In this document: positions 5,901 through 42,561 of the stretch, piece by piece
Position numbering within the stretch: the stretch's first letter is position 1
Layout of the letters: each line of letters starts with the position of its first letter
Assembly: GCA_009914755.4 (NCBI GenBank)
Contig: CP068257.2
Span: 34,240,001-34,304,000 of the forward strand
DNA: 64,000 bases
From: the human T2T-CHM13v2.0 reference genome, Homo sapiens
Direction of reading: 5' to 3'
Notes under the pieces: generated by a model
What the model was told of the DNA's origin: nothing
What the model saw: only the letters and a program-made list of their open reading frames with translations
Database searches by the model: none
Program-made: the position numbers and the translations under genes

Positions 5901-6248
5901 CTTGCCTAAGAAAATTATTACACCCCAAAGTCCATCATGGTTATGAAATTCCATTGCATCCGTCTCTTGTTTATTTACTTTGAAACCAACATTCTAAATC
6001 TACTTGGGATACTCAATGCAAAATAATACTAGTTCTGTTTATTTTTATTTGGCTTTAAAGGAAAAAAGTAGGGGAAGAAGAGGGATGAGGTCTCAGTTAA
6101 TGATCAAGAAAATATGGCAGAAGTTGACATCTACCTGAGATAAATCAAGATCAAATCTTTGTATCTCTTCTTTGTCAATGGATCCTTTCTTCTTTCCAAG
6201 CAATACATTTATGTCTTTCTAGATTGATAATTAATATCCCATATTAAT

Positions 6249-6553
6249 TAGGCTCATGCCTATAATCCCAGCATTTTGGGAGGCTGAGGCAGGAAGATCA
6301 CTTGAGCCCAGAAGTTGGGGATGAGCCTAAGCAACAAGGGAAAACCCTGGATCTACAAAAAATAAAAAATTAACCAGGCATGGTGGCGCACAACTGTAGT
6401 CCCACCTACTCAGGAGGCTGAGGCAGGAGGATTGCTTGAGCCCAGGAGGTCAAGGCTACAGTGAGCCAAAATCACGTCACTGCACTCCAGCCAGGGTGAG
6501 AGAACAAGACCCCCTGTCTCAAACAAACAAAAAAAAAAAAAAAAAAAAAAAAA
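6249..6553 (+). mobile_element. Alu SINE with ~30-nt poly(A) tail
   Basis: ggctcatgcctataatcccagcattttgggaggctgaggcagg ... cactccagccagggtgagagaacaagaccccctgtctcaaacaaacaaaaaaaaaaaaaaaa. Confidence 0.9.
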
Positions 6554-7489: not shown

Positions 7490-8700
<1,211 letters not shown>

Positions 8701-9394
8701 TCAAAAAAGTGAATCCATTACGATTAGGGATACCACATGGTGAAACCCTTATGATAGACATCTACAAAAAGAAATGTCTAGAAGTCTTGAAACTTTCATA
8801 CCAAACCACCAACTCTGAATGGTGGGTGGCACTGAGGGGCCAGGAGTAAGAGGGGGAGGGAACCAGGAGACTCAGTACAGGAGCAGGTTTATGTTTTGCT
8901 CAATATATTTTTGTTCTGTTTGCATTTATACTAGCAACTTTTCATGTATTATTCATATAGATTAAATGACTCAATCAATCTAGGAGTGAGTGAGCTATCA
9001 ATTGCCCAAGCAAGTGAGTGAGTGGGCAAATGAATGGAGAAAGAAAAAAGTATCCCAGTATCATAGGCAGGTCCTAATAGTAAAGTCTTCATAAAATCAT
9101 GTACAGTAAACTACAAAGCAAAAAAACAGATCATGCAAAATCTGATCAACCCAGACATTTTAGAGCCTGTGTATGTGAAGACACTTAAGTCCCTAGTCAC
9201 AGATACAATGAGCTTATATGCTAAAATTTTATAAATGAAAATTTTACAAGGTAACTTGTTGATCGACCAGTCAAATATGAGTTCAGAACCAGATACCATC
9301 TTAAATGATCCCTGTGCCCACCCTAATACCATCCTGCCTGCCCTCCAGGGACCCTCCAATCATGAGACCCTAACTAAGAAGTCTTGCTGCCCAA

Positions 9395-9705
<311 letters not shown>

Positions 9706-9807
9706 AGTCTTACTGCCCCTTTAAATTTCATGACCCCCAGAGTATTTGAAAGCACATTTCTGAATCCACCCAGAATTACTTCTTTACAAACATTCCAAAA
9801 AAAAAAA

Positions 9808-10132
<325 letters not shown>

Positions 10133-10284
10133 TTATCAACCAGTGTCCAAATTCAGAGTAGAGCAGCATTCTTTCAAAATTGAAGCAATTGAAAACAAAA
10201 CAAAAACAACTCTACCTCCAACCAAAAATCATATGTAACTCTGAGAATCCAAGTTTTCAGATGCTTGTTGGAGAGAGAATGTGT

Positions 10285-10440
10285 TGCTTAACTTATCTCA
10301 GCCTCAGTCAGGGTCCTCATCTATAAAATGGGAGGATAAGCATCCCCTGCCTCACTAAGGAGTTATAAGGATTTCACAAAATCCTGGGAAACTCTTAGCA
10401 CATTGCTAGGCACACAGCAAATGCTCAGGAGATGTTTGTT
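10285..10440 (+). mobile_element. MIR (mammalian-wide interspersed repeat) core
   Basis: cttatctcagcctcagtcagggtcctcatctataaaatgggaggataag...cattgctaggcacacagcaaatgctcaggagatgtttgtt matches the MIR consensus (ctcagtttcctcatctgtaaaatggg...gtgcctggcacatagtaagcgctcaataaatg). Confidence 0.75.
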
Positions 10441-10835
10441 GTGGTCTTAATTTTTTTTATTAAGGCATGTTTTAACTGTATTACCTTGGGTAAAGTCTGG
10501 TAAGGCCAGATGCAAAACAGGAGAGATAAACTAGAAAGAGTTTTACAGATTTGCTACTCACAGCCCTGTGGGGAGAATGCAGCGGGTCACACTGGGCCAC
10601 TCTGGGAAGTGTTGGCTACCAGGGTCGACAGAAGGAGAGAGTAGGAACAAGGAAAGCGTCTTCATTGAGAAGAAGCAGGGAGGTGGGGGGGAGTCTGGGT
10701 AAGCAGGCTTAGCATTGGCTAGTCTGAATCATTTCAGTGGACTCCCAGCCATAGGGGCTGTCCTGAGTTACCTGGTATCTGCCCCTGGGATAATTATGGC
10801 AGGTGGATAGTGGCTCCAAGTTTGAGAGGTTAATT

Positions 10836-11210
10836 GTATTAGTCCCTTCTCACCCTGCTGATAAAGACATACCTGAGACTGGGTAATTTATAAAGAAAAA
10901 CAGGTTTAATGGACTCACAGTTCCACGTGACCGGGGAGGCCTCCTGATCATGGCAGAAGGTGAAAGGCACGTCTTACAAGGCTGCGGCAAGAGAGAATGA
11001 GAACCAAGCAAAAGGAGTTTCCCCTCATAAAACCATCAGATCTAATGAGACTGATTCACTACCACAAGAACACTATGAGAACAGTATGAGGAAAACCGCC
11101 CCCATGATTCAATTACCTCCCACCACGTACCTCCCACAACACGTGGGAATTATGGGAGCTACAATTCAAGATGAGATTTGGGTGGGGACACAGAGCCAAA
11201 CCGTATCACT
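10836..11210 (-). mobile_element. ERVL-MaLR LTR (THE1/MST family), minus orientation
   Basis: Reverse complement of the THE1 consensus: ...tgtattagtcccttctcaccctgctgataaagacatacctgagactgggtaatttataaag ... ccccatgattcaattacctcccac...gtgggaattatgggagctacaattcaagatgagatttgggtggggacacagagccaaaccgtatca. Confidence 0.8.
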
Positions 11211-11599
11211 AATACAAGAGGTAGCTGGGAATACTGACGTCATCAGCTGCTCAAAAAGGGGAACTGACAGCTTCTAGCCAAGTCCTCAAAACTGGGCCAA
11301 AGCAGCATTATAAAAACTATATTACAAGGTAAAAGTCACACTACATAAAATCAGCCATTTTAAAATAAAACATTCAATGGCATTTAGTATACTCACAATG
11401 TTGTGCAACCAGCCACCACCTCTGTCTAGTTCCAAAACACTGTCATCATCCCAAAAGAAACTCTGGACTCATAAAGCAGTTACTCTCCATTCTCCCACTG
11501 CTACCACCTCGTTTCCAGTCCTGCCAGATCCTGGCAATGACCAATCTGCCTTCTGTCTCTATGGGCTTACCTATTCCAGATATATGATATAAATTTAAT

Positions 11600-12000
11600 C
11601 ATACAAAGTGTGACTATCATGGGCTGAATTACGCCTCCCTAAAATTCACATGTTGAAGCTCTCAATTCCCAATGAGACCATATTTGGAGATGGGGCTTTT
11701 TAAGAGGTAATTAAGGTTACATGAGATCATAAGGGTGGGGCCCTAATCCCATAGGAGTGGTGTCCTTATCAGAAGAGGAACACACGCCAGGGATGTGAGT
11801 GCACAGAGGAAAGGCCGTGTGAGGACACAACAAGAAGGCAGCCATCTGCACGCCAAGGAGAAAAGCCTTGGGAGAAAACTAACCTGCCAACACCTTGATC
11901 TTAAACTACTAGCTTCTAGAACTGGGAGAAATCAATTTCTGTTCTTCAAGCTGCCCAGTCTGTGATATTTCACAATGGCAGCCTGAGCAGATTAACACAG
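11600..12000 (+). mobile_element. Old interspersed repeat (MaLR/MER-type; same family as 38.2-38.9 kb)
   Basis: Characteristic motifs gggtggggccctaatcc...gaggacacaacaagaaggcagccatctgcacgccaaggagaaaagcc...ctgccaacaccttgatcttaaactactagcttctagaactgggagaaatcaatttctgttcttcaagctgcccagtctgtgatatttcac. Family name not resolved by eye. Confidence 0.45.
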
Positions 12001-13230
12001 TGGCTTTTTGTGTCACATAGCATAAAGTTTTCAATGCATTGTAGGAGGTGTCAGTACTTCATTCCTTTTTAATGGCTGAATAATATTCCATTATATGTAT
12101 ATACCACAATTTTTTTACCCATTCATCCATTAATGGATATTTGGGTTATTTCTGCCTTTTGGGTATTGTGAATAATGCTGCCATAAACATTCATGTCCAT
12201 CCATTTGTTTGAGTAACTGTTTTCAATTCTTTTAAGTACATAGGAATGAAATTGCTGGGCCTTATGGTAATTCTATATTTAACTTTTCAGGAACCAGCAA
12301 ACTCGTTATTTTTAAAGTATTCACTTCAGTGCCTATCACGTACAGGCCCTGTTTCACAGAGTGGGTGGAAATATCTATGAGCCATCATCCCTGCCCTACT
12401 GCCTCTGCAGGTTCTGTCTGTGAGAACCATTCCTCCAAAAGAAAAGCAGTAGCTATAATTTTCCATGGGATCTTAGTTTTATTCAAAATGAGTACCTGGG
12501 CAAACTCATGACAATTGAACCTCAAATGTCAAAGTAGCCTTTGTTTTCCAAATATTTATATTTCAAATGTTTATGGGCAAATAGACCTATTCTCTTAATT
12601 AATGCTGATATCCTCTAAGTAGGCCAAACTTGACCTTCTATAGCATCAAATAAAATATATTTCTAGGCCTCCGATCATACACATCCATGCATGAATGGAT
12701 ACAAAATGGCAGAAAGGTCAGAGAGACAAAGACTGCCAAACTGGAGAGGGATCGATTAACAGAGTTCGCAGAAACACGGACAGGAAGAAAACATAGCAGA
12801 CCTCAGAGAACCTAAGCCAGGGCAGAGATTCAAAGAGGAGAACAACACAAGAATGCCAGGATGCAGAGAGGATCTACCAGTTTTGGAAGGAGGCAGGGTT
12901 AAGAGATGAGAGAGGAATGTTAGTTTCATGCCCTTGCCAATATCTTTCATAGCTAATTACACCCTGACAACCTATAAATTCCTCTAATAGTTTTCACTGG
13001 AGAAACTATTCTTCTACCCACTCCTACAAATATGAAGCAGGGTCGCTGGTCCAGACTAGCTTCCAGAATCACCCAAGTGGTGCTGATTATCAGTGGTGGG
13101 TGTGGACAACGGAGAAAACAAGAAGGCATTTTTCTGAGAGCGCTTGTGGCAAAAATCACCTTGTATGGTAAATACCAGATTCCACACATCAAGTGTCCTT
13201 ATTTCCTAACTGAAAGAAATAACTAAGGAG

Positions 13231-26518: not shown

Positions 26519-28860
26519 GACCTGAACTCAGCTCTGGGTCAAGCAGACCCGACAGGTATGTACAGAACTCTCCACCCAAAACAACAGAATATACATTCTT
26601 CTCATTGCCACATGGCACTTACTCTAAAATTGATCACATAATCAGAAGTAAAACACTCCTCAGCAAATGCAAACAGAACTAAAATCATAATAGTCTCTCA
26701 GATCACAGTGCAATCAAATTAGAACTCAAGATGAAGAAATTCACTCAAAACCACATAACTACATGGAAACTGAACAACCTGCTCCTGAATGACTCCTGGG
26801 TAAATAATCAAAGTAAGGCAGAAATCAAGAAGTTCTTGAAAACCAGCACAAGACAAGTTCTGGCCAGGGCAATCAGGCAAAAGAAAGAAATAAGAAGTAT
26901 TAAAATAGAAAAAGAAGTCAAATTATCTTTGTTTGCAGATGACATGATCTTATATCTAGAAAACCCCATTACCTCAGCCCAAAAGCTTCTTAAGCTGATA
27001 AGCAACCTCAGCAAAGTTTCAGGATACAAAATCAATATGCAAAAATCACTAGCATTCTTATACATCAACAACAGGCAAACAGAGAGCCAAATCAGGAATG
27101 AACTCCTATTCACAATTGCTACAAATAGAATAAAATACCTAAGAATACAGCTAACAAGGGAAGTGAACCACCTCTTCAAAGACAACTACAAACCACTGCT
27201 CAAGGAAATCAGAGAGGACACAAACAAATGGAAAAACATTCCATGCTCATGGATAGGAAGAATCAAGATTGTGAAAATGGCCATACTGCCCAAAGTAATT
27301 CAATGCTAGTCCCATTAAACTACCACTGACATTCTCTGCAGAATTAGAAGAAACTATTTTAAAATTCAGATGAAACCAAAAAAGAGCCTGAATAGCCAAG
27401 ACAATTCTAAGCAAAAACAACAAAGCTGAAGGCATCATGCTACCCAACTTCAAATTATACTACAGTAACCAAAACAGTATAGTACTGGTAGAAACACAGA
27501 CACATAGACCAATGGAACAGAACTGAGAACTCAGAAATAAGATTGCACACCTACAACCATCTGCCCTTCAACAAACCTGACAGAAACAAGCAATGGGGAA
27601 AGGATTCCGTTTAATAAACGGTGCTGGGAGAACTGGCTAGCCATATGCAGAAAGTTGAAACTGGACTCCTTCTTTACACCACATACAAAAATTAACTCAA
27701 GATAGATTAAAGACTTCAATGTAAAACGCCAAACTATGGAAAAACCCTAGAAGAAAATCTAGTCAATACCATTCAGGACATAGGCATGGGCAAAAATTTC
27801 ATGATGAAAATGCCAAAAACAATTGCACCAAAGCAAAAATTGTCAAATGGGATCTAATTAAACTAAAGAGCTTCTGCACAGCAAAACAAACTATCATCAG
27901 TGTAAACAGAAAACCTACAGAATGGGAGAACCATTTTGCAATCCATCCCTCTGACAAAAGTCTAATATCCATGGTCTACAAGGAACTTAAACAAATTTAC
28001 AAGAAAAAAATACTAAAAAGTGGGCAAAGGACATGAACAGACACTTCTCCGGAGAAGACATACATGTGGCCAAAAAGTGTATGAAAAAAGGCTCAACATC
28101 ACTGATCAACAGAGAAATGCAAATCAAAACCACAATGAGATACCATCTCATACCAGTCAGAATGGTGATTATTAAAAAGTCTAAAAACAACAGATGCTGG
28201 TGAGGTTGTGGAGAAATAGGAATGCTTTCACACTATTGGTGCGAATGCAAATTAGTTCAACCATTGTGGAAGACAGTGTGGCGATTCCTCAAAGATCTGG
28301 AGGCAGAAATACCATTGGACCCAGCAGTCTCATTACTGAGTATATACCCAAAGGAATAGAAATCATTCTATTTTAAAAATACACACAAATATATGTTCAC
28401 TGTGGCACTATTCACAATAGCAAGACATGGAACCAACCCAAATGCCCATCAATGATAAACTGGATATAGAAAATGTGGTACATATACACCATGTATATAA
28501 TAATGATAAACTGGATAAAGTAATGATAAACTGGATAAAGTAATGATAAACTGGATAAAGAAAATGTGGTACATATACACCATGGAATATACTATGCAGT
28601 ATATATATACTATGCGGTATATATATATATCATAAAAAGGATCATGCCCTTTGAAGGGACATGGATGGAGCTGGAAGCCATAATTCTAAGTGAAGTAATG
28701 CAGGAACAGAAAACAAAACACTGTAAGTTCCCACTTATTATTGTGAGCTGAATGATGAGAACCCATAAACACATGGTGGGGAACAACACACACTGGAGCC
28801 TGTTGGGGGTAGGGGGAGGGAGAACATCAGGAAGAATGGCTCAGAATAAACAAATAAATA
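26519..28860 (+). mobile_element. L1 (5'-truncated, with ~1.2 kb internal ORF2 deletion), + orientation, inserted into an older repeat with a 12-15 bp TSD
   Basis: Starts in ORF2 at gacctgaactcagctctgggtcaagcagacccgacaggtatgtacagaactctccacccaaaacaacagaatatacattcttctc. It jumps from ...gaaatcaagaagttcttgaaaaccag straight to gttctggccagggcaatcaggcaaaagaaagaaataag (RT palm region), so ORF 26731..27309 is a fusion of non-adjacent ORF2 parts. Internal 21-bp x3 tandem (taatgataaactggataaag) at ~28496-28558. Tail aataaacaaataaataaatt. Flanked by agatgtg(c/t)tgta direct repeats. Confidence 0.85.
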
Positions 28861-29936
28861 AATTAGATGTGTTGTAAAATACACACCAAATTTCAAAGAC
28901 TTAGTACCCCAAAAAAGTCAACTAACTCATTAATAACTTTTTATAGTGATTATATGTTAAAATTTGGCTACAACGGATTAAAACATATTACTAAACTTTT
29001 TTTTTACCTTTATCATAGGGCTACTAGAAAAATTTAAATTACCCATATAGCTCACATTATATTTTAATTATATAATCTTAACCCAGAGTATTCATGAAAA
29101 CGAGAATCTCATAGAGGTAGCACAGGAATCTGCATGGTTAACAAGCATCCAAGTGATTAAGGTCACTGCTATTTGAAAACCCCTGACTCAGCAGTGACCT
29201 GAAGCACGAGTCAGGACACTTGGATTCTAAACATCATTCAGTTCTTTTTCTTACCTGGGACTCCATCTCCTCATCAATAGCATGAAGGGCTTGGATTAGA
29301 CCTGGAAAGTTGTCTGATTTAAGGCTTCCGATTCCATTATCCACTGATTGTCCATCAACCCATAAACCTAGGCCAGCAGATGTCCCCAGAGACTGAATGT
29401 ACCCAGATGGATACCAGATTCAGGCAGGTGTGACCTTAGGGAGGCTTTCCTGGTTTTTCACATCCTCCGGAGGACTCTGAAAGAATGGTCACCTGGGGGC
29501 TTCCCAGAGGAGTACAGCTAACTCCAGGGGAACCACATGGAACGTTGTCTGCATCAACATCCTTATCGCGACCAACTGCCCAAGGACTGCCATGTACAGC
29601 ACAGCCTCTCGATATGTCCCAGAGCAGACTCACACTCTTAGGCTGCCCTAAAAATGGCCAAGATTCCATGGATCAAACAGCAGAAGAATGCAGCCCGTCC
29701 CAAGGAAGGTTACTCGACTCAAGCTACCAACCTATTCAGCCAGAAGAATTCCTTTTCAGAAGCAGATTGGGAAACCAATTTTTTTTCCCCTATGGAACCA
29801 TCAATTTCACCTTTCCAAGATGACTCTGACGAAAGTTGCTAACCCACTCTTCAGAACCTTTGAAATTCATCTTTCTAATTGAAGGGAGGTTTTCCAGTGG
29901 GGAAAAAATGGCTCATTCGAAATAAGAATAAATGTG

Positions 29937-31440
29937 TTCGGCGTCGGCGTCGCTCCGCGCGGGGGCTCCAGGCCGAAGTCTCGCCGCGGGCTGCGAGTCA
30001 AATGCCGGTGGTTAAGGGCGCTCGATAGGCCTCTACCCGTTTGGCGTTGGCTCTGGCGTCTGGGTCGTTGTGTCCTGACAACCGCTCAGGTAACCGTTTC
30101 CTAGACAGCGGGTGCGGCTACTTTAGCCCTGAGCGTGCTCTGCGGCTGCCTGCGGGTCTCAGCTAGTGTCCGACCCTTCTCTTCGCGGACTCCACGCCGA
30201 GCAGCCACCCTGAGCCAAGAGCCGGAAGTCCCGGCATTGGCGGCCTGGACAGCCTCGCACCGGCCAATCAAGGAGAACCTCAAGAACAACTTCCTCTATG
30301 ACTTCCTCTACGGCGGTGTCGGCCTAACAGCTCCACGGGAGTGTGGACGAGGAGCTGAGCAAAAAAATTCCAGAAGTGAGATGAAATGAACATCCTGGCG
30401 ACATATCATCCAGCAGACAAAGACTATGGTTTATGAAAATAGATGAACCAAGCACTTCTTCCCATCGTATTATAGGTGATGATGAAGATGTATGTAGTGA
30501 TACAGAGACCACTGAAACCATGGAACGAGATATCTTAGCTAAGAAATTCGCTGCTGCTTGAAGGCTCGGAGCCAAAGTATAGGGTTCAGGAATAAGATAG
30601 CAGCAGAGAGGAGGATAGTGACCTCTCACCTGAAGAACAAGAAAAAAAGCGACAATTTGAAATGAAAAGGAAGTTTCACTACAATGAAGGACTCAATATC
30701 ATCAAACTAGCTAGACAATTTCAAAAGACCTAAATGATGACGAAGATGAAGAAATGTTAGAGACTGTAGATGGAGAAAGCATGAATACGGAAAAATCAAA
30801 TCAAGGATCTACTGCAAGTGACCAACAGCAAAAGAAATCACGAAGTTCATAGAAGAGATTTGTTCAACGCTGCAATTGTTAGATATAAACCCTGTTACTA
30901 TAATGCATTGCTTCTTGTTCTCCACAATTCATGACTGAAGTACCAAAATGCATACCAGTTATTATATATTGCCAAGAATTAAATGATAACCTTATAGAGA
31001 CTGATAATGCCTAAAATATATTCTTGTGCATAGTACTTTACCACAAATACAGTGTAATATCATCAGTCCAAAACTGCATTACTTTTGTAAAAAACACTGG
31101 TTAATTTGTATAAGATATCATATAACTTTTTATGCTTTAGAGGTTAAACAATGTCTTTGGGGGGGAACATTTATTGTCATCACTCTAAATGTGGTGGTAG
31201 CTCTTATAAAGTTTGTTGTTGTTTTAATCAAAAGCCAACTGAACAGCATATAAAGACTGATAAATATTCAGGCTGAGTAGTATTTTAACGCTTGTCTTCA
31301 ACTTGATTTGTCTGTTTAATTGAAAAGGGTTGTAAGAGTTACCGTTGCATTTTCTGGCCTACTACCTTTAAAATTCCTGTTGTGTTTCTTTGTATTTACA
31401 AGGAAAGGTCTGAACTTTTTCTTGTCAAAACTAGCTTTTT
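29937..31440 (+). pseudogene. Processed (retrotransposed) pseudogene of PPP1R2 (protein phosphatase 1 regulatory inhibitor subunit 2): CpG-rich 5' UTR, disabled CDS (30236-30851), proximal 3' UTR. The 3' boundary is uncertain because it abuts the NUMT.
   Basis: Intronless. Translation of 30236-30851 gives ...TASHRPIK.. / ..[18 protein letters not shown].. / ..EGSEPKYRVQE.. / ..[36 protein letters not shown].. / ..MLETVDGESMNTEKSNQGSTASDQQQK..RSS, matching human I-2 (MAASTASHRPIKGILKN...[33 protein letters not shown]...[54 protein letters not shown]...MLETADGESMNTEESNQGSTPSDQQQNKLRSS). Disablements: ATG replaced by ATTG, at least three frameshifts and several in-frame stops. The A-rich target site aaataagaataaatgt precedes the GC-rich 5' end. 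Confidence 0.9.
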
Positions 31441-31449
31441 TCCGACAAA

Positions 31450-32135
31450 TAAATTATCAGGTTAAACTTGCACTAATGTCTCCTCTGTTTTTTGTTTTGG
31501 TTTTTTCTATTTTATGTTTTTGGTACACTGGGCAGACTTCAGAGCAGCTTTTTTTCAATAAATATTCTAATGTAGCTATCTCAGCATTCCCTTTAAATAC
31601 CTGTCTTAACCTCCTGCTTTTATTTCTTACCCCTTTCCTCACATAGGCACACAATCCTTTACCTTTTAAAGGATCATTAAGATTGTCACAACGTTAGGAA
31701 CTCTTTCTCTCACTCTTCTGTCATTTGCTGCAATATTGAAATTCTTATTTTGACCATCAATGCCTATGAATTCTTCTAATACACGAAGCAAATAGATTAA
31801 GTAGCAGCAGTACTATAGGCAGGAAATACAGTTTAACTGCTGAATTTCTATACCTCTCTCATTTACAGCTTGCTAATTAAATTGTTATTATCAGTTTTTT
31901 TGGCTTAATTAGACTTAAGAAAACAATTAACTGAGGGTTTTTTTGTTTTTTGGGTTTTTTTTTTTTTTTGCATGAGGAGAGAATTGTGTGTAACCAGTGA
32001 TATGATTATTACTGAAAGTACAGACAAAAGTAAGCCTGGACATTGTTTAATTTAAATACTTTAAATAGTCCCTGCTTTAAGGGAATACGATAATATATAC
32101 TATGACAAATGTACTTTATTCTTCTAACACAGTAA
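31450..32135 (-). pseudogene. MT-CO2: MT-CO2-derived fragment within the NUMT (probable)
   Basis: ORF 31457..31654(-) contains ...KKSCSEVC..., matching the conserved COX2 motif YGQCSEICG (nt gctgctctgaagtctg vs mt aatgctctgaaatctg). The upstream stretch gacaggtatttaaaggg resembles ggacgtctaaaccaaacc (IPGRLNQ). The position is exactly as predicted from the COX1 offset. The sequence is heavily decayed. Confidence 0.5.
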
Positions 32136-32139
32136 GAAT

Positions 32140-32285
32140 TACTTGGAATTTTTTCCTGAAATGAAGTGCAGGAAAGCCCTGTGCATCTTGGGTTAGTGAT
32201 GGTTTCATTTCTAGCCAATTATTTGTATCTTAAGTTTTTGTTAGTACCAAAATAATCTGTTATATGAACAGACTTTTAAAATAAT
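32140..32285. pseudogene. tRNA-Asp / tRNA-Ser(UCN)-derived remnants within the NUMT (weak)
   Basis: gtgatggtttcatttctagcc at 32196-32216 matches the reverse complement of the mt tRNA-Asp 5' end (gaaatggtttttctaatacc), at the expected position between COX2 and COX1. Confidence 0.35.
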
Positions 32286-33826
32286 TTCTGTATATTATAT
32301 ATATAAGAAAGCTTTTATTGAACAGCTTATCTTCCACTTGCAAGTTTATGGAAATATCAGTATGTCAAAATAAATAAAAAGTGGGAGAATTATTTGGTAT
32401 TAGAAGAATGTTTTAATTATTTTGATTTTTTTAATGGGATATAATCAAAGTACTGCTGAACTATAGGTGCAGTATTCTACTAAACATTTCAGCTAGTAAT
32501 ACCACTGATTTAGAAACAAAACTGCTTATCTCTGCCTTCTGAATTTAGAATGTTGAGATTACCTGTTTAAATCTGTTTTGGGGGATGTAGACATTAAGTC
32601 TGTACATACATGTGTACATATATTCATGCACCTTCTGATTTTGGTTTTCTTGTTTTTGAGTTCTTAGAAAGTATTCACATACTCTTTTTTTTGGTAGAAG
32701 TAGCTGTTGTACAATGAAGAAAAGGATAAGACTTTAAACAGTTGATTCTGTTTGTGTTTTCTCCAAATTATTTTTTGAAATTTACCTTACAAGCAAACTC
32801 ATTTTCTGGTTTTCAGAAATAGATGATTATTTCAGAGCAGTAAGACATGACAAACAGCATGCCCAGGAGGATTTTAGGTAGTCAAATTCAGCTGAGAAAA
32901 AGGTGTTTTCAAGTCATAAGTTGCTCATTGATATGGTATGAACTAGTCAAAATATGAACCATTATAATTCAAGTTAGATTTTCTTCTGGAGAGACAGATT
33001 TGAATGTTCAGTTCTAGCCACAGTAGATTTTACTTTCAACTTTTTAATCAATATCACTTTCTGTGCTTAACTCCTTGGTGTTGCCTTGTCCGTTTTCATT
33101 AATCAAATTCTGCAGGGATGACTAAAATTTGACATAATGGTATAAATGGATTGTTAAGAATAACTTTAAGTTGAAGATTAAAGCAAGATGCCATTTTCCC
33201 CATGACTTCGATTTTGTTTACATTTTTTCCTTTAAGTTAGTATACACTACACATACATAAAATACAATAATATGACAACAAAAGGAATAAATGTTCTTAT
33301 TTTATAGAATAATAAAATGTCTGATATTGGGATATGACTGGTGGTGTTATATTCATAATTGTTGTAATAAAATTAGTAACTCCTAAAATTAATGGAATAC
33401 CTGCGAAGCGTAATGAGAAAATTGTAAGAGGCTCCTGCGTGTGCTAAATTTCCAACTAAAGCTGCTTATCCTGTCCCAGCTCCAGCTTCTACTAGTAAAG
33501 GGGCAAGCAGAAGTCAAAACGATGGTGAAAAAAGTCAGAAGCTTATATTGTTTATAAGAGAATGCTGTATCTCGGCTCAGTCATTTAGGGAGCTAATCAG
33601 TTACCAAGTCCTCTTATTTTAATTGGCATATCCATTAAAAGATTATTACAAATGCATGGGCAGTTATAATGACATAAATTTGATCATTGCCTAATAGGGC
33701 TCCTGGTTGACCCAGTTTGGCTCATATTAAGAGATTTATGTCAGTTCCTACTACTCTGGCTCAAGCACCGAATACTATAATGTGCCAATATCTTTGTGTT
33801 TGTTGAAAATAATCAATGATTAATCA
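32285..33826 (-). pseudogene. MT-CO1: MT-CO1-derived pseudogene within the NUMT. Unambiguous for 33316-33826; weaker further left.
   Basis: Reverse complement of 33790-33826 is atattgattaatcattgattattttcaacaaacacaaagatattgg, i.e. M(F/L)INH.LFSTN.KDIG, the COX1 start MFADRWLFSTNHKDIG. It continues ...FGAWA.V.GT...LL....LGQPG.LLGNDQIY.VI.TAHAFVMIF... / ...MNNMSFWL..PS..LLLA....EAGAGTG... / ..GNLAHAGAS... with a 9-bp deletion and frameshifts. Confidence 0.85.
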
Positions 33827-33838
33827 ATATAGGTAGAA

Positions 33839-34217
33839 GAGTGAAATGGCTGAGGAAGCCTTAATCCGTAATCTAAAGACAGAGGTTGAACCCTCTTTTT
33901 ACTGTGCCTCAAGGTGAATAGTCACATCAAATTGCAAACTCAAAGATGCAGCTTCAATTCTGCCAGGGCTTCCCCTGCCCTTTTCTCTCAACAGCAGAAG
34001 TAGACTGAAGACAGGTGATTAGGGTATTTCACTGTTAATGAAATTTTCTTGAGGTTGGATACTACCAATCTAATGAGGATTTAGTTTAATTAAAATGTTT
34101 GATTTGCATTCAATTGATGTAAGATAGAGAGTGTTGCAGTCCTTAATTTTTCAGGAATAAAATATAAAATATTGCTTAGGGCTTTGAAGGCTTTTGGTCT
34201 GCCTAACCTAAATTCCT
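33839..34217. pseudogene. mt tRNA cluster within the NUMT: tRNA-Tyr, tRNA-Cys, OriL-like hairpin, tRNA-Asn, tRNA-Ala (all sense on the window + strand) and tRNA-Trp (antisense)
   Basis: ggtagaagagtgaaatggctgaggaagccttaatccgtaatctaaagacagaggttgaaccctcttttta matches mt tRNA-Tyr. caaattgcaaactcaaagatgcagcttcaattctgcc matches tRNA-Cys. agggcttcccctgcccttttctc is OriL-like. aagtagactgaagacaggtgattagggtatttcactgttaa matches tRNA-Asn. aggatttagtttaattaaaatgtttgatttgcattcaattgatgtaagatagagagtgttgcagtccttaa matches tRNA-Ala. ttagggctttgaaggcttttggtctgcctaacctaaattcct is the reverse complement of tRNA-Trp. Confidence 0.85.
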
Positions 34218-35260
34218 AATCCAATGTTGAGAATACTGGTTTAAGTGGGAAGAAAAAGGCTGATAACAAAATAAGCGAGGGAAGGAAGAATGTTTATTTT
34301 ATATTTTCAAATTGTCATTTTGTTTTTATGTTATTGGTTTTGGGGAACGTCTTTAATGATGTAGAATAGATTAATCCCATACAAAAACATAAGTTGAGTA
34401 GGGCTTTGATGGTGATAAATGTTAGTATAATAACGCTGTTATTTTTTGTTAATTCTTGGCTAATAAGTCATTTGGTAAAAATCGTGTAAGAGGAGGTAGG
34501 TCTTTTGGAGATAATAGAAATATAAAGATATGGGAGTTATTAGTGATAACTTACCCCATGTATGTAATAATGATAATGTATGGGAGTTATATTTAAATTG
34601 AATAAATATGAATACAGTGATTATTAATATTTTGTAATTAGTAGATGTAACATTATTGTAGAAAGGTTGTAGGTTAGAGTGGACATTATTTAGTCTATAT
34701 GTGCAATTAATAGGCCAGAATTTTGTATAGTTATGCCTGATTTAGTCTTCCTCATTCTCCTATCAGAATTGATAATATAGCAGTAATTAATATTACATTT
34801 GGGTTAATTGATGATACTTGGAATTGAGATTAGTGCCAGTTTTTGTCATATTAATAAGATTATGCCTGATGTTATTGGAATTCCTTGTCTTACTTCTGGG
34901 ACTCAGAAATGGAATGGAGAAAGCCCACTTTTTATAATTACTGTTATAGTGATTATTACAGATGCTATTGGGTTGGGAATTTTTATGATTGTTCACTACC
35001 CAGAATATGATATATCAAGACACCTACTATTAGGACTGTAGATGCAGTTGTGTTAAGAAATATTTAGTAGCTGCTTCTTTGGATCATGAATTTAATTTTT
35101 TATTAAAATGAGAATAATGGCTAGTACATTTATTTCTAGTCCTATTCAGATTATTAATCAGTGCAAGCTAAATATTGTAAGTATAGTTCCTGTAAATTTC
35201 TGGCTCACGGTTCACATCACTCTCTGTTATATAGTATACAGAGACATACGTATTATATAT
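34218..35260 (-). pseudogene. MT-ND2: MT-ND2-derived pseudogene within the NUMT
   Basis: gattagtgccagtttttgtcatattaataag...ccttgtcttacttctgggactcagaaatggaatggagaaagccc is the reverse complement of ND2 (...gggggctagtttttgtcatgtgagaag...aacctctgggactcagaagtgaaagggggc). The 5' end gcaagctaaatattgtaagtatagttcctgtaaatttctggctcacgg is the reverse complement of the ND2 start region (...atctttgcaggcacactcatcacagcgctaagctcgcactg). Confidence 0.8.
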
Positions 35261-37066
35261 ATATGATATCTTTCTAAAAATAACCAATGAAATTGCTTTA
35301 GTAAGCATTGCCATGTCATTTTTGGAGGGAGAAAGATAGGGAGCAAAGAAGGAAATGGGTAAGATGGGCCCCAATCTAAACCTCAGGTGTGCTTCCCACA
35401 AAAGGTTCCAGAGAGTCTCTGGATTCCCCACAACCAGAGAGCAACAGCAGGTGGAGTTAGATTGGAGATGAAAGCATTTCAGATAAATGTTTGTTGACTC
35501 ACATGTAAGGAGAAAATTTACCAGGCTGCCTAAGAGGAAAAGATCTTGGCCCAAACCTTTTCCTTAATCAATGGAAGAATCCCCATTTTCCCCCACTACA
35601 AAGAAAGGAGCAAAGAGCCAGCCACGAGGTGGTCAATCTGCACCAGCTCAGACATGAGTGCAAGGACATTCTATGGCCTGGAATCTTCAACGCACATGAA
35701 AAGGGCTTTTTCTATCCATAAATGGTAATGATCTACAACAATAGGGCTGTGACACTGGAAGATACCAATTCCTACATCTTGCTTTGCTGAGGACACTCAC
35801 GGTTTTAGCCTCAGACCTTCCTAGATTACATTTTAGCTTTAGTTCATATTCTCATATTTGTCCTAAATGTCAGCCTCTGATCAAGCTCATTAAACAGAGG
35901 CTGGCCCTTCCCACAGGGGGCTTATTATCTCAGCCAGACAATTCTTGCCAGTAGGCAAGAGGAAGAAGACAAGCAAACTTATAAGAGTTGTAAAGAATGG
36001 AACTGGGACCCAAATTATGAGCTAAGGCCTTGAGTAAACATATACAGAGGTTCCAGGTAAATGGTGATTCTGTTTACAGTGGAACAGGGCCTTCTTATCC
36101 AGGATTTCTCCTCCTAGCTGATCTGATTAGCAGCTCCTTATTCATATCTCCTGCTCCAAAGTTTTCCATTGCCACATATACAGGTAATGGTATTTTGCAC
36201 AAGAAGATAAGCATGATTCAATAGAGGTAGGAGGGTCTGGTAATCAGCTACAACATCAATTGCAATATATGATCACTAGTAACATTCCCAACAGGTGTGG
36301 CCCCACCTCTTCCTCTGCATGGAAAACAATTAATGGTATCTTTTTTGCTATCCTTGGATTGTGACTAAAGTATGAGGTGCTTTCATCATAATTAGAGGTG
36401 CTGTGTCACCAGGATCTATGTTAATGAGCAACCAGAACTTCCTGGAAGATAATAGCCCAAGAAGCAACCCACTGTCATCAGTGAAGAAGTGACTCTGGGA
36501 AGACGTTGGTGCTTGGTTGGTTTCCTGAGCCCGGCCCAGCCCAATCTGCAATATGTAGAGACCGCAACTGAAAAGGGAGGTTGTTTTCACTAACAATATC
36601 CAAGGCACTGAGGAAGGGGTGGCTCTGCTTCAGTGACCTTTCATGAAGTACACACCAGGTGAAAAGAGGAATTTGCTCCACAAAAAACTACACAGCTGTG
36701 GCTCCTAAGGGCTCCAAGTATCATCAGCACAAGCAGAGGAGATGGCGCCCAGGGCAGCAGCAGAGTGGCCTGGAGGGCAGGTGTCGCTCACCCCAGGGGT
36801 GGCAGATGGTCTCAGGTAGACCTGGATGACAACGGAGGAGTCTCTGCTGGCACCTTCCCAGGCATCAAGGAAATAAAATGGCAGCTGCCACACGGTAACT
36901 AAGCCCTGGAACCATTTAGGAGAAAGGTTTCTGAGGGCCAATGTCCCAAAGCAGCTAGAAAAATAAGGTCATCAATACTAGTGTGAACCTCTTTTAAGCC
37001 CCATGAGTTGTAAGATCTTAACCACAGTCTACAACTTCAAACTTTTTCTAGGATGTAAAAATTGTG

Positions 37067-38940: not shown

Positions 38941-40752
38941 CACTAAGCCACCATACCAGTAGTTTTCCAATTCTGTTCCGTTGGCCCCTAGGGTCCCGGG
39001 TAGATGTTTAATAAGTGGCTCTCAGGAGAGGGTGTGGGAGACCTGATGTGCAGTTGCTGCCAATTTCCATGGTGTAAACACTCCCCCTATGGCCAATTTC
39101 AAGCTCCCAGTGTGTGGTCACTGAATGCAGAGCTGGGAATTGCTGCACACAGTCACTCTCATGACCAGGAGGAGACACCAGGAGGTACCTCAGGGATGGC
39201 ATGGGGTAAGGGGAGGACCAAAGAAGCAGGACGCCAGCATTGCCACCAGCCCAAACTAAGCACTGTATGTATGAGAGCAACACAACTGAAACTGTAAGCT
39301 CCACTGCAGTAGCCCATGACCATCAAAGCAACAAACCCACTTCCTTTTCAACCTGAAGTTTTTTGTATCTGTTACATGCCTAGACCTCTGGAACCCCAGG
39401 CCACTGTCTGTAAAGATCCAGCAGTTTTAGAGGTCACTCAGGGGCGCTTAGTGGAGGTCACCCTTCTCATCCCTGGCCTCTGTTTCTTGCTCATTAAAGA
39501 TCGTGCTGCTTTTCACTCACCTAGAGATGAATTTCAAAAAGAATGTCTTTCTTTCACATTCGGCAGGAGATCAAATTCCCCCTCCTCTCTCAAAAAACAC
39601 TCTTTAGGAAAAGAATTCCAGAAGAATCTACCCACAGATTCTGAGTCCTTAATCTAGCTATCCAGTGTGACACAGAACTCAGACACTGTGAGAAGGTTTT
39701 GCTTTTACTGGGCCTGTTCTCCAGGTCTGTGCTTTCTAATTATAAAGTTGATGTCTCAGTCCTTCTTTGATCAGTTCAACTAAGAGGACTTGGTGTTTAT
39801 GGCAATTGAATTGCTTCTTTGTCACGATGTCAGATTCGTCCCACCGTTCAACTACCTCTAACACACGAATTGTATCAACTAAGCGCATCAAACAGTAATG
39901 GTGAAAGGGAGAGGGACTAGTGCAGTGGCTCTCAACTGGGGGCAGTTTTTCCCCCCAGGAGACGTTTGGTGGTGTTTGGACACATTTTTGATGGTCACAG
40001 CCAGAGAAAGGGATGCTACTGGCATCTGGTACGTAGAGGCCAGGGTTGCTGCTACCTATTGTACAAGGCATAGAGCAGCCCCACAAGATAAAGAATTATC
40101 TAGTCTAACTATCAATAGTGAGAGGTTGAAAAACCCTAAATTCATGAAATGGGGAGCCCAGAACACATTGACTGGGATAGATTTGGTCATTGTCCTATCA
40201 CCGTACTAAGGTGCTGGCCAGTAAGACGGTCTAAAGATAGAGGCATATCTTATACATATGACACACGAAGAAGAACCTCTATACAACTAAATTATTTTCA
40301 ATAATAATTATGTAATAATAAGCAACAACCATTATTTTCTTTAATTTTGCAGCAATTTAAAAAGTTAAAAATACATTTCTATTTTAAAAATTTTATTCAA
40401 ATTCAAGAAAATACTTAATGTATGAACTAAACTTTGCACTTACCAAACAAAAACATTTTACCTTGCAGCTCTCATTGTTTTATTTTAAAATTCATGTTAA
40501 TCAATGGGGAAAAGATTCCCTATTTAATAAATGGTGCTGGGAGAATTGGCTAGCCATATGCAGAAAATTGAAACTGGATCCCTTCCTTACACCTTATACA
40601 CAAGTTAACTCAAGATGGATTAAAGACTTAAATGTAAAACCCAAAACTATAAAAACCCTAGAAGAAAATCTAGGCAATACCATTCAGGACATAGGCATGG
40701 GCAAAGATTTTTATAATGAAATTGCCAAAAGCAATTGCGACAAAAGCCAAAA

Positions 40753-41678
40753 GCCGCCCCGTCCGGGAGGGAGGTGGGGGGGTCAGCCCCCCGCCCGGCC
40801 AGCTGCCCCATCCGGGAGGTGAGGGGCGCCTCTGCCCGGCCGCCCCTACTGGGAAGTGAGGAGCCCCTCTGCCCGGCCAGCCGCCCCATCCGGGAGGGAG
40901 GTGGGGGGGTCAGCCCCCCACCCGGCCAGCCGCCCCGTCCGGGAGGTGAGGGGCGCCTCTGCCCGGCTGCCCCTACTGGGAAGTGAGGAGCCCCTCTGCC
41001 TGGCCAGCCGCCCAGTCCGGGAGGGAGGTGGGGGGGTCAGCCCCCCGCCCGGCCAGCCGCCCCGTCCGGGAGGTGAGGGGCGCCTCTGCCCGGCTGCCCC
41101 TACTGGGAAGTGAGGAGCCCCTCTGCCCGGCCACCACCCCGTCTGGGAGGTGTACCCAACAGCTCATTGAGAACGGGCCATGATGACAATGGCGGTTTTG
41201 TGGAATCGAAAGAGGGGAAAGGTGGGGAAAAGATTGAGAAATCGGATGGTTGCCGTGTCTGTGTAGAAAGAAGTAGACATGGGAGACTTTTTATTTTGTT
41301 CTGTACTAAGAAAAATTCTTCTGCCTTGGGATCCTGTTGATCTGTGACCTTACCCCCAACCCTGTGCTCTCTGAAACATGTGCTGTGTCCACTCAGGGTT
41401 AAATGGATTAAGGGCGGTGCAAGATGTGCTTTGTTAAACAGATGCTTGAAGGCAGCATGCTCGTTAAGAGTCATCACCACTCCCTAATCTTAAGTACCCA
41501 GGGACACAAACACTGCGGAAGGCCGCAGGGTCCTCTGCCTAGGAAAACCAGAGACCTTTGTTCACTTGTTTATCTGCTGACCTTCCCTTCACTATTGTCC
41601 TATGACCCTGCCAAATCCCCCTCTGCAAGAAACACCCAAAAATGATCAATAAAAAAATAAAAAAAATAAAAAAAAAAA
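40753..41678 (+). mobile_element. SVA retrotransposon (hominid-specific), 5'-truncated: VNTR region (40753-~41160) + SINE-R (HERV-K-derived, ~41160-41650) + poly(A) with AATAAA
   Basis: GC-rich tandem units of ~37-49 bp (gccgccccgtccgggagggaggtgggggggtcagccccccgcccggccagc / tgccccatccgggaggtgaggggcgcctctgcccggccgcccctactgggaagtgaggagcccctctgcccggccagc) are repeated about nine times. This is followed by the SINE-R signature ...tgtctgtgtagaaagaagtagacatgggagactttttattttgttctgtactaag...gggttaaatggattaagggcggtgcaagatgtgctttgttaaacagatgcttgaaggcagcatgctcgttaagagtcatcaccactccctaatc...caagaaacacccaaaaatgatcaataaaaaaataaaaaaaataaaaaaaaaaa. Inserted precisely inside L1 ORF2. Confidence 0.9.
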
Positions 41679-42240
41679 TTGACAAATGTGGTCTAATTAA
41701 ACTAAAAAGCTTCTGCACAGTAAATGAAACTATCATCAGAGTGAACAGAAAACCTACAGAACAGAAGAAAATTTTTGCAATCTATCCATCTGACAAAGGT
41801 CTAATATCCAGAATCTACAAGAAACTTAAGAAAATTAACAAGAAAAAAAACCATTAAAAAGTAGACAAATGATATGGACAGACACTTCTCAAAAAAAAAA
41901 AAAAAGACAGACATGAGGCCAACAAACGTATGAAAAATAGCTCAACATCACTGATCATTAGAGAAATACAAATCAAAACCACAATGAGATGCCATCTCAC
42001 ACCAGTCAGAATGGCGATTATTAGAAAGTCAAGAAACAAAAGATGCTGGTGAGATTGTGGAGAAATAGGAATGCTTTTACACTGTTGGTGGGAATGTAAA
42101 TTAGAATCAACTATTGTGGAAGACAGTGTGGTGATTCCTCAAAGATCTGGAGGCAGAAATACCACTGGACCCAGCAATCTCCTCACTGGGTATATACCCA
42201 AAGGAATGTAAATCATTCTATTATAAAGATACATGTACAT

Positions 42241-42561
<321 letters not shown>

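What the first reader, a model, noticed from the sequence alone, without database searches (positions are those of the whole stretch)
31450..35260. Very old, strand-asymmetrically decayed NUMT that retains the mt gene order ND2 to COX2 and the ancestral mammalian COX1 residues
Identity to modern human mtDNA is only about 70-75% even in the most conserved COX1 blocks. The conceptual translation keeps GNLAHAGAS, the ancestral form seen in mouse and most mammals, where human has GNYSHPGAS. There is a 9-bp deletion near FFMVMPIM and multiple frameshifts. This points to an insertion predating much of primate diversification. Such molecular-fossil NUMTs preserve the ancestral mt sequence and are useful outgroups. 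They can also contaminate mtDNA heteroplasmy or ancient-DNA analyses and COX1 barcoding. Standard NUMT scans at high identity thresholds may miss or split it. The COX2 to COX1 C-terminal portion is especially degraded.
Basis: partly seen in the sequence, partly recalled or inferred. Interest (0 to 1): 0.5.

Follow-up and report, generated by a model that had tools for sequence, protein, structure and literature searches.

The report
Old catalogued mitochondrial DNA insert, half-sized
This is a real, very old, dead copy of mitochondrial DNA in human chromosome 21, but it is only half as long as claimed, has been in public catalogues since 2011 (HSA_NumtS_552), and the other half of the interval is the tail of an unrelated processed pseudogene (PPP1R2P2).

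Summary
A NUMT is present, but only at window 33,319-35,196 (minus strand, about 1.88 kb). It covers ND2 codons ~14-347, tRNA-Trp/Ala/Asn, OriL, tRNA-Cys/Tyr and COX1 codons 1-~181. No COX1 C-terminal part or COX2 exists anywhere in the 64 kb. The supposed "degraded" stretch (31,450-33,282) is the 3'UTR of the PPP1R2P2 processed pseudogene (29,937-33,282, plus strand). It aligns without introns to all six PPP1R2 exons of baboon, capuchin and lemur.

The NUMT matches HSA_NumtS_552 (hg19 chr21:37,262,572-37,264,422) in strand, mt span (1,910) and nuclear span (1,851). A same-sized, collinear macaque entry (Rhm_Numts_080) exists.

The old age is supported. Identity is 65.6% to human mtDNA and 72% to rhino. 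The NUMT shares 9 of 91 human-only nucleotide states and 1 of 28 human-only amino-acid replacements; GNLAHAGAS is retained. It never groups with human in trees. Its non-CpG decay is 2-3 times that of the adjacent retrocopy, which the literature dates to 29-43 My.

Insertion was most likely near or before the primate-colugo split. Already known; low interest.

The parts
33319..35196 (-). The NUMT itself (HSA_NumtS_552), equivalent to rCRS ~4509-6445
   Evidence: blastn with colugo, pig and human mtDNA. nhmmer profile hit 35,195-33,319, envelope 35,215-33,307, 1,186 bits. Sliding identity. Catalogue match of strand, mt span 1,910 and nuclear span 1,851.
34218..35196 (-). ND2 pseudogene fragment (codons ~14/16 to 347), with 8 frameshifting indels and 6 mt-code stops
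   Evidence: phmmer against PDB ND2 chains, E 1e-88 bovine, residues 16-346. tblastn residues 14-347. Codon table. Indel list.
34152..34217 (-). tRNA-Trp pseudogene
   Evidence: Mapping from rCRS 5512-5579 through the alignment. Rfam tRNA 21 bits, below threshold.
34075..34145 (+). tRNA-Ala (anticodon UGC), on the opposite strand to ND2 as in mtDNA
   Evidence: Rfam RF00005, 33 bits, above gathering score. Mapping from rCRS 5587-5655.
34001..34073 (+). tRNA-Asn pseudogene
   Evidence: Mapping from rCRS 5657-5729. Alignment.
33934..34009 (.). Remnant of the light-strand replication origin (OriL) region
   Evidence: Mapping from rCRS 5721-5798. Alignment shows the conserved stem sequence CTTCTCCCGCC...GGCGGGAGAAG decayed to CTTCTGCTGTT...GGCAGGGGAAG.
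33904..33971 (+). tRNA-Cys pseudogene
   Evidence: Mapping from rCRS 5761-5826.
33840..33904 (+). tRNA-Tyr (anticodon GUA)
   Evidence: Rfam RF00005, 29.6 bits. Mapping from rCRS 5826-5891.
33319..33830 (-). COX1 pseudogene fragment (codons 1 to ~181), with 8 indels (6 frameshifting) and 4 mt-code stops
   Evidence: phmmer against PDB COX1 chains, E 4e-68. tblastn. Codon table.
33430..33453 (-). Codons for GNLAHAGA (ancestral; human has GNYSHPGA)
   Evidence: Human state from L010, whose COX1 is 513/513 identical to PDB 5z62_A.
33460..33464 (-). Site of the in-frame 9-bp deletion (removes TVY/PP codons after GAGTGW)
   Evidence: Alignment and indel list.
29937..33282 (+). Not part of the NUMT: the PPP1R2P2 processed pseudogene. 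It has a truncated 5'UTR, a CDS equivalent at about 30,236-30,852, and a full 3'UTR to the poly(A) site at 33,277.
   Evidence: Six collinear intronless blastn blocks to PPP1R2 exons 1-6 of baboon, capuchin and lemur. 3' end alignment. Translation. PMC3840573.
29924..29936 (+). 5' target-site duplication of the retrocopy (AAGAATAAATGTG)
   Evidence: 11/13 identical to 33,283-33,295 (AGGAATAAATGTT).
33283..33295 (+). 3' target-site duplication of the retrocopy, 23 bp from the end of the NUMT

Best explanation
Window 33,319-35,196 (minus strand) is a non-functional nuclear copy of about 1.95 kb of mitochondrial DNA. It runs from ND2 codon ~14 through the WANCY tRNA cluster and OriL into the first ~181 codons of COX1. 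Such fragments are captured at a chromosomal double-strand break; this mechanism is inferred from what is established for NUMTs and was not tested here. The insert has since decayed neutrally. It is the catalogued HSA_NumtS_552 on chromosome 21. The insertion happened on the human ancestral lineage at about or before the primate-colugo split, roughly 70-100 My ago, so it preserves a near-ancestral mitochondrial sequence. Much later, a PPP1R2 mRNA was retroposed by the L1 machinery 23 bp beyond the COX1 end of the NUMT, producing PPP1R2P2. The literature dates that event to about 29-43 My ago; my data allow a somewhat older date.
For: Identity and extent:
- There is a single significant mt match in 64 kb.
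- Gene order and tRNAs are confirmed.

Catalogue:
- HSA_NumtS_552 is on chr21, minus strand, mt 4535-6444 (span 1,910), nuclear span 1,851.
- My blastn with the same scoring parameters gives rCRS 4536-6445 and window 35,169-33,319, which is also 1,851 bp.

Nuclear context:
- The window carries an AluY, an SVA-like VNTR and a retrocopy.

Age:
- Macaque Rhm_Numts_080 has the same mt extent and size and is collinear with neighbouring NumtS.
- Identity is lower to human (65.6%) than to rhino (72.0%) or pig (70.6%).
- The best ND2 protein hit is colugo, and no primate appears in the top 120.
- Only 9 of 91 human-singleton sites are shared, against 17-28% chance sharing with other taxa's singletons.
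- Of 28 human-specific amino-acid replacements, the NUMT is ancestral at 21, human at 1 and other at 6.
- In the transversion-only NJ bootstrap, Colugo+Human (60%) and Colugo+NUMT (39%) together account for 99%, so Human+NUMT gets about 1% or less; Human+NUMT is not among the eight commonest splits under any of the three distance measures.
- Non-CpG divergence from invariant sites is 13.8% (transversions 3.9%), against 4.9% (2.05%) for the adjacent PPP1R2P2. That retrocopy is dated to Catarrhini, 29-43 My, in PMC3840573.

No function: 10 stops, 14 frameshifts and neutral-like decay.

Left half is the retrocopy.
Against: - No primate other than human, and no outgroup to Boreoeutheria, could be obtained. 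The tree therefore cannot say whether insertion was just before or after the primate-colugo split, or even before the boreoeutherian root.
- The three quartet counts (NUMT+human 9, NUMT+colugo 13, human+colugo 18) are not significantly different.
- The clock ratio depends on a literature age for PPP1R2P2 and on rate constancy. Transitions give a ratio of 3.5 and transversions 1.9.
- Orthology with the macaque entry is inferred from table coordinates, not from an alignment.
- The capture-at-a-break mechanism is inferred from general knowledge of NUMTs.
Confidence: 0.93

Rival explanations
1. One reading: one 3.8-kb NUMT spanning ND2 to COX2 (31,450-35,260), whose COX1 C-terminal and COX2 part is merely more degraded.
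For: The interval length equals the ND2-COX2 distance in human mtDNA. The region 31,000-33,300 is AT-rich like the NUMT.
Against: There is no mt similarity there by blastn, tblastn (mt code) or a six-species nhmmer profile run with --max. Identity is at background level. A contiguous co-inserted segment would have decayed equally and would be detectable. The region aligns at about 84-90% identity (BLAST figures) to the PPP1R2 last exon and 3'UTR in three primates. The reconstructed pre-retroposition allele shows no mt continuation either.
Confidence: 0.01
2. A younger NUMT, inserted in stem anthropoids or stem primates (about 45-70 My). It would look older because the human mitochondrial lineage accelerated afterwards and because mt-derived sequence decays unusually fast in the nucleus.
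For: The transversion-only clock ratio to PPP1R2P2 is only 1.9. Trees cannot resolve the node. Anthropoid acceleration of COX genes is established knowledge. Catalogue orthology is shown only down to macaque.
Against: The NUMT shares essentially none of the human-lineage changes accumulated since the colugo split: 9 of 91 sites, below chance level, and 1 of 28 amino-acid replacements. Some of those changes should predate anthropoids. The overall non-CpG ratio is 2.8. The best ND2 hits are colugo and slow-evolving laurasiatherians, not primates.
Confidence: 0.2
3. A recent insertion from hominoid mtDNA that was heavily mutated, or an assembly or contamination artefact.
For: None beyond the fact that the host is a hominoid genome.
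Against: Identity to human mtDNA is 65.6%. Ancestral states are retained. The insert is present in the hg18 and hg19 catalogues, with a macaque counterpart. A retrocopy dated to Catarrhini and carrying its own target-site duplication lies 23 bp away in the flank.
Confidence: 0.01
4. The NUMT and the PPP1R2 cDNA were captured together in one repair event, or the site is a recurrent break hotspot. This would explain why the retrocopy lies only 23 bp from the NUMT end.
For: The proximity itself. The pre-insertion allele shows the NUMT ending right there.
Against: Decay of the two elements differs 2-3 fold, so their ages differ. The retrocopy has a normal L1-type target-site duplication and an A-rich target. 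The AT-rich NUMT flank is a good L1 endonuclease substrate. This is a post-hoc coincidence at one locus.
Confidence: 0.05

Closest known systems
HSA_NumtS_552 in the RHNumtS.2 compilation / UCSC NumtS track (Simone et al. 2011, PMC3228558; Calabrese et al. 2012, PMC3314570)
   Same: Chromosome strand (minus), mt span 4535-6444 (1,910 bp), nuclear span 1,851 bp, and low identity (blocks at 69.39% and 67.23%). These are identical to my blastn of human mtDNA against the window using the same scoring parameters.
   Different: Nothing of substance. The catalogue reports only two BLAST blocks (mt 4535-4890 and 5510-6444). More sensitive alignment to less derived mitogenomes shows one continuous segment that starts about 27 bp earlier (rCRS ~4509).
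Ancient orthologous human NUMTs (Huang & Frith 2025, bioRxiv 10.1101/2025.03.14.643190)
   Same: The same class of old, roughly 65-70% identical NUMTs retained across orders. That study lists 1,013 human NUMTs, of which 189 are ancient orthologous and 90 are at least 100 My old.
   Different: I could not check whether this locus is among their 189 or 90, because the per-locus table is not held. My data place it near the primate-colugo split and do not demonstrate a pre-eutherian age.
Rhm_Numts_080 (rhesus macaque chr3:10,675,674-10,677,534, rheMac2)
   Same: mt span 1,914, nuclear span 1,861, about 67.8% identity. Its position is collinear with the macaque counterparts of HSA_NumtS_554 and HSA_NumtS_555.
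   Different: Orthology is inferred from tables only. No sequence alignment was possible.
PPP1R2P2 processed pseudogene (Korrodi-Gregorio et al. 2013, PMC3840573)
   Same: It explains the left half of the finding. It is on chromosome 21 and is an intronless, 5'-truncated copy covering nearly the whole 3,475-nt PPP1R2 mRNA, including the full 3'UTR.
   Different: It is not mitochondrial at all. My site patterns hint that it may be as old as the catarrhine/platyrrhine split rather than strictly catarrhine: (retro,lemur)(baboon,capuchin) 33 against (retro,baboon)(capuchin,lemur) 20. This is weak evidence.

Membership tests
NUMT (nuclear mitochondrial DNA segment) | Statistically significant similarity to mitochondrial DNA | tested here: met
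   blastn E 2.6e-165 (colugo), 0 (pig), 1.7e-106 (human). nhmmer 1,186 bits.
NUMT (nuclear mitochondrial DNA segment) | Collinearity with the mitochondrial gene order across gene boundaries, including strand-switching tRNAs | tested here: met
   ND2-W-(A,N,OriL,C,Y on the opposite strand)-COX1. Rfam finds tRNA-Ala and tRNA-Tyr on the + strand and tRNA-Trp on the - strand.
NUMT (nuclear mitochondrial DNA segment) | Embedded in nuclear DNA | tested here: met
   AluY, SVA-like VNTR and PPP1R2 retrocopy in the same window. Catalogued on chr21.
NUMT (nuclear mitochondrial DNA segment) | Loss of coding capacity under the mitochondrial code (pseudogene) | tested here: met
   10 stop codons and 14 frameshifting indels in ND2 and COX1.
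   No hit with E below 1.6 for the COX1(nt 561)-COX2 profile. tblastn with COX2 and COX1 beyond residue 198 is negative. Identity is at background.
Ancient (pre-anthropoid) NUMT | Lacks the derived states of the host's modern mtDNA lineage and branches basal to it | tested here: met
   9 of 91 human singletons shared, against 17-28% by chance. 21 of 28 amino-acid positions ancestral and 1 of 28 human. Human+NUMT about 1% or less in the transversion-only bootstrap and absent from the eight commonest splits under K2P and LogDet.
Ancient (pre-anthropoid) NUMT | Orthologous presence in distantly related species | tested here: inconclusive
   A macaque counterpart is inferred from published tables. 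There is no mouse chr16 entry, which is uninformative. Genomes of marmoset, lemur, colugo and others could not be searched.
L1-mediated processed pseudogene (for 29,937-33,282) | Intronless alignment to consecutive exons of a multi-exon parent gene | tested here: met
   Six abutting blocks that match exons spread over about 26-28 kb in baboon, capuchin and lemur.
L1-mediated processed pseudogene (for 29,937-33,282) | Ends at the parental poly(A) site with an A-tail, and is flanked by a target-site duplication | tested here: met
   Homology stops at ATGACA, downstream of the parental AATAAA (mutated to ATAAAA in the copy). A short A-rich remnant follows. The TSD matches at 11/13 positions. The tail is very short, so this is the weakest feature.

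The most novel reading that the evidence does not exclude
The insert may date to the stem of Euarchonta/Primatomorpha, about 80-95 My ago, or even earlier. It would then be one of the longest contiguous (~1.9 kb) mitochondrial 'fossils' of that age in the human genome. It could serve as a slowly evolving outgroup sequence for resolving primate-colugo-tree shrew relationships and for reconstructing the ancestral primate ND2/COX1. It could also give a local calibration of nuclear decay against the adjacent dated retrocopy.
Probability: 0.45. Interest if true: 0.3.

Novelty: already known. Interest (0 to 1): 0.1.

Why it matters
It matters little. The element is a catalogued, non-functional NUMT, and ancient human NUMTs as a class are well described. 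The useful results are mostly corrective:
- The insert is half the claimed size.
- The 'degraded COX2' half is a PPP1R2 retrocopy.
- The contamination worry is unfounded at about 65% identity.
- The strand asymmetry is inherited mitochondrial composition.

The modest positive value is a 1.9-kb near-ancestral mt sequence with an internal age comparator next to it.

Tried and rejected
- ARAGORN in bacterial mode found no tRNAs in 30,000-37,000. Rfam was used instead.
- I looked for any other mt-derived piece in the window, in case the NUMT had been split by later insertions as in HSA_NumtS_014. I used two near-complete mitogenomes and four nhmmer profiles covering 12S to cytb. Nothing was found.
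- I tested whether the NUMT resumes upstream of the retrocopy by reconstructing the pre-insertion allele. It does not.
- Exact-number searches of the catalogue with my first coordinates (6445, 4536 and similar) failed because of an off-by-one. Searching by the span values succeeded.
- Supplements of Tsuji 2012 are not held, and those of Huang & Frith 2025 are held but do not contain a per-locus table.
- The mouse NumtS table has no chr16 counterpart. I judged this uninformative, given mouse rates and the BLAST threshold.
- I could not obtain non-human primate or afrotherian/xenarthran mitogenomes. The ND2 protein search returns only the 120 best hits (colugo plus Laurasiatheria), and a human query would be swamped by human variants. 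I ran no further search on this because it could not change the verdict.
- Strand-asymmetric decay was considered and rejected as non-significant.
- Co-capture of the NUMT and the retrocopy in one event was considered and judged unlikely, because the two have decayed to different extents and the retrocopy has a normal target-site duplication.
Full report
**Host and orientation**

The window is hominoid nuclear DNA. It carries a perfect AluY 5' end at 8,640-8,675 and an SVA-type VNTR at 40,752-41,150. Translating the minus strand with the vertebrate mitochondrial code shows ND2-like and COX1-like peptides between about 35,200 and 33,250. Nothing recognisable appears further left.

**What is mitochondrial**

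- Stitched translations match solved ND2 chains over residues 16-346 (E 1e-88 for bovine, 3e-78 for human, 5e-61 for mouse). They match COX1 chains from residue 3, in an alignment that nominally runs to residue 216 (E 4e-68). The reliable COX1 similarity ends earlier, at about codon 181, as shown below.
- An ND2 protein search gave colugo as the best hit, followed by rhinoceroses, bears and other slowly evolving laurasiatherians. No primate was in the top 120.
- I fetched labelled mitogenomes: colugo NC_004031, pig NC_000845, black rhino NC_012682, Steller sea lion NC_004030 and Iberian mole NC_039630.
- I also fetched a human mtDNA contig from a metagenome. Its COX1 is 513/513 identical to the human structure 5z62_A and carries GNYSHPGAS.
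- blastn gives one significant match per mitogenome: window 35,195/35,190 to 33,319/33,318.
- nhmmer run with --max and a profile of ND2 to COX1 nt 560 scores 1,186 bits over 35,195-33,319.
- Profiles of the remainder find nothing with E below 1.6, and nothing in 31,450-33,318. These covered COX1 nt 561 to the end of COX2, 12S to the ND2 start, and ATP8 to cytb.
- tblastn with COX2, ATP8/6, COX3 and ND1 in the mt code is negative.
- Sliding identity to six mitogenomes is 0.5-0.8 inside the segment. It drops to the 0.33-0.36 background left of about 33,305 and right of about 35,203.

**Anatomy**

Mapping rCRS annotation (coordinates from memory of MITOMAP) through the alignment gives the following:

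| Feature | Window coordinates | Strand |
|---|---|---|
| ND2 | 35,196-34,218 | - |
| tRNA-Trp | 34,217-34,152 | - |
| tRNA-Ala | 34,075-34,145 | + |
| tRNA-Asn | 34,001-34,073 | + |
| OriL remnant | 33,934-34,009 | . |
| tRNA-Cys | 33,904-33,971 | + |
| tRNA-Tyr | 33,840-33,904 | + |
| COX1 codons 1-~181 | 33,830-33,319 | - |

- Rfam independently calls tRNA-Ala (UGC, 33 bits) and tRNA-Tyr (GUA, 29.6 bits) on the plus strand. tRNA-Trp is below threshold on the minus strand.
- There are 26 indels against the consensus. Eight lie in ND2, all frameshifting. Eight lie in COX1, six of them frameshifting.
- There are 10 mt-code stop codons.
- The in-frame 9-bp deletion lies at about 33,462, after GAGTGW. 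It is not at FFMVMPIM, where only 1 bp is missing at about 33,639.

**Identity**

| Segment | Identity to human, gap-free columns |
|---|---|
| Whole segment | 65.6% |
| ND2 | 60.4% |
| tRNA cluster | 72.3% |
| COX1 | 70.5% |

Whole-segment identity to the other mitogenomes is 72.0% (rhino), 70.6% (pig), 70.2% (mole), 68.3% (colugo) and 68.2% (sea lion).

**It is already catalogued**

- I ran blastn of human mtDNA with the scoring used by Simone, Calabrese and colleagues (+2/-3/5/2; parameters read).
- It gives rCRS 4536-6445 against window 35,169-33,319. That is an mt span of 1,910 and a nuclear span of 1,851.
- RHNumtS.2 lists HSA_NumtS_552: chr21, minus strand, mt 4535-6444 (1,910). Its position is hg18 36,184,442-36,186,292 and hg19 37,262,572-37,264,422 (1,851).
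- The catalogue entry has two blocks at 69.39% and 67.23% identity.
- The same catalogue holds many NUMTs at 64-72% identity, so this one is not at risk of being missed.
- The macaque compilation has Rhm_Numts_080 (chr3, mt 4478-6391, spans 1,914/1,861, 67.8%). Its distances to the macaque counterparts of HSA_NumtS_554 and HSA_NumtS_555 mirror the human distances: 2.0 and 6.4 Mb against 2.06 and 6.56 Mb.
- This makes orthology, and hence an age of at least the catarrhine ancestor, very likely.
- The mouse table has no chr16 counterpart, which is uninformative.
- Huang & Frith (2025) report 1,013 human NUMTs, 189 of them ancient orthologous and 90 at least 100 My old. I could not check whether this locus is among them.

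**What the left half really is**

- Six-frame translation of 30,300-33,300 revealed a frameshifted protein phosphatase inhibitor-2 (PPP1R2) reading frame at about 30,236-30,852 on the plus strand.
- A protein search returned PPP1R2 of many mammals. I fetched the baboon, capuchin and lemur genes.
- Window 29,937-33,278 aligns as six abutting blocks to exons 1-6. These exons are spread over about 26-28 kb in each species. Block identities run 84-93% to baboon, 81-93% to capuchin and 81-91% to lemur.
- The last block (30,804-33,278) is the terminal exon with the whole 3'UTR.
- Homology stops at ...AATAATATGACA (33,277), just downstream of the parental AATAAA. A short A-rich remnant follows.
- The sequence A[A/G]GAATAAATGT[G/T] occurs at 29,924-29,936 and again at 33,283-33,295, matching at 11/13 positions. 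This is a target-site duplication.
- This element is PPP1R2P2. It is described on chromosome 21 as covering nearly the whole 3,475-nt mRNA with all four poly(A) signals, and is dated to Catarrhini at 29-43 My (PMC3840573).
- The NUMT ends 23 bp to the right of the duplication. In the reconstructed pre-retroposition allele, mt similarity stops at the same point.

**Age**

1. *Site patterns.* At 91 sites only human differs from five other mitogenomes. The NUMT has the human base at 9 of them (9.9%). That is below the 17-28% coincidental sharing seen with singletons of the other five taxa. The quartet counts are NUMT+human 9, NUMT+colugo 13 and human+colugo 18.
2. *Amino acids.* Of 28 human-specific replacements, the NUMT is ancestral at 21, human-like at 1 and other at 6. 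The human-like case is D50N, a G>A change that decay could produce.
3. *Neighbour-joining.* With transversion distances the NUMT stays outside Laurasiatheria in 98.7% of bootstraps. Human+colugo excludes it in 60%, and colugo+NUMT occurs in 39%. That leaves about 1% or less for human+NUMT, which is also absent from the eight commonest splits under K2P and LogDet. Without an outgroup, the attachment point on the Primatomorpha-Laurasiatheria branch cannot be polarised.
4. *Local clock.* At non-CpG sites invariant in six mitogenomes, the NUMT differs at 13.8% (transversions 3.9%). At non-CpG sites invariant in three PPP1R2 parents, the adjacent retrocopy differs at 4.9% (transversions 2.05%). The NUMT has therefore decayed 1.9-2.8 times as much in the same genomic neighbourhood. 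This implies roughly 60-120 My, given 29-43 My for the retrocopy.

Taken together, insertion was most likely at about or before the primate-colugo split. It was certainly not within hominoids.

**Decay process**

- On the mt-sense strand, C>T is 51/245 and G>A is 24/179 (p = 0.054; non-CpG p = 0.13). A>G is 22/300 and T>C is 13/281 (p = 0.22).
- Sense-strand C fell from 25-32% in the six mitogenomes to 20% in the NUMT, while G stayed at about 13%.
- This is what symmetric nuclear C/G-to-T/A decay does to a sequence that starts C-rich and G-poor. No asymmetric process needs to be invoked.

**Practical claims**

- With about 65% identity to human mtDNA, reads from this locus will not mis-map to mtDNA.
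- The insert ends at COX1 nt ~542. This is upstream of the reverse Folmer barcoding primer site, which I recall as about nt 700 (established primer positions, from memory). The LCO1490-equivalent site also carries a 1-bp deletion. The contamination concern is therefore negligible.

**Verdict**

This is a genuine, old, non-functional NUMT that is already in public catalogues.

Noticed in passing
window 29,937-33,282 (+): PPP1R2P2 processed pseudogene. It has a 5'-truncated UTR, a frameshifted CDS equivalent at about 30,236-30,852, and a complete 3'UTR. A target-site duplication lies at 29,924-29,936 and 33,283-33,295. The retrocopy landed only 23 bp from the COX1 end of the much older NUMT.
   Followed up: yes
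PPP1R2P2 against parents L025 (baboon), L026 (capuchin) and L027 (lemur): The informative site patterns are (retro,lemur)(baboon,capuchin) 33, (retro,baboon)(capuchin,lemur) 20 and (retro,capuchin)(baboon,lemur) 11. This hints that the retrocopy may be as old as, or older than, the catarrhine-platyrrhine split. The published date is Catarrhini-only, 29-43 My. Parallel CpG decay could also produce this pattern.
   Followed up: partly
L026 ~33,620-33,935 (capuchin PPP1R2 3'UTR): About 317 bp of extra sequence interrupts the capuchin 3'UTR relative to the retrocopy, baboon and lemur. It is probably a lineage-specific repeat insertion.
   Followed up: no
window 40,752-41,150: A GC-rich tandem array (period 127 with a 37-nt sub-repeat, 94% matches) with SVA-type VNTR sequence. 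This indicates a hominoid-specific SVA element.
   Followed up: no
window 8,364-8,675 (-): An Alu whose first 36 bases match the AluY-type 5' consensus exactly. It has a perfect 31-nt poly(T) (poly(A) on its own strand) at 8,364-8,394, which suggests a young insertion. A second, more diverged Alu 5' end lies at 42,240-42,275 (+).
   Followed up: no
window 28,501-28,560: A perfect 3-copy tandem repeat of the 20-mer TAATGATAAACTGGATAAAG, followed by a 2.3-copy 18-mer array at 28,587-28,627.
   Followed up: no
window ~35,300-36,000: The sequence immediately beyond the ND2 end of the NUMT looks like an interspersed repeat (possibly LTR-like). It could not be classified without a repeat library. 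It contains no mitochondrial similarity.
   Followed up: no
RHNumtS.2 table, HSA_NumtS_014 (hg18 chr1:94,158,319-94,175,887): Another 64-72% identical NUMT. It spans mt 1739-12883 and is broken into 10 blocks over 17.6 kb.
   Followed up: partly
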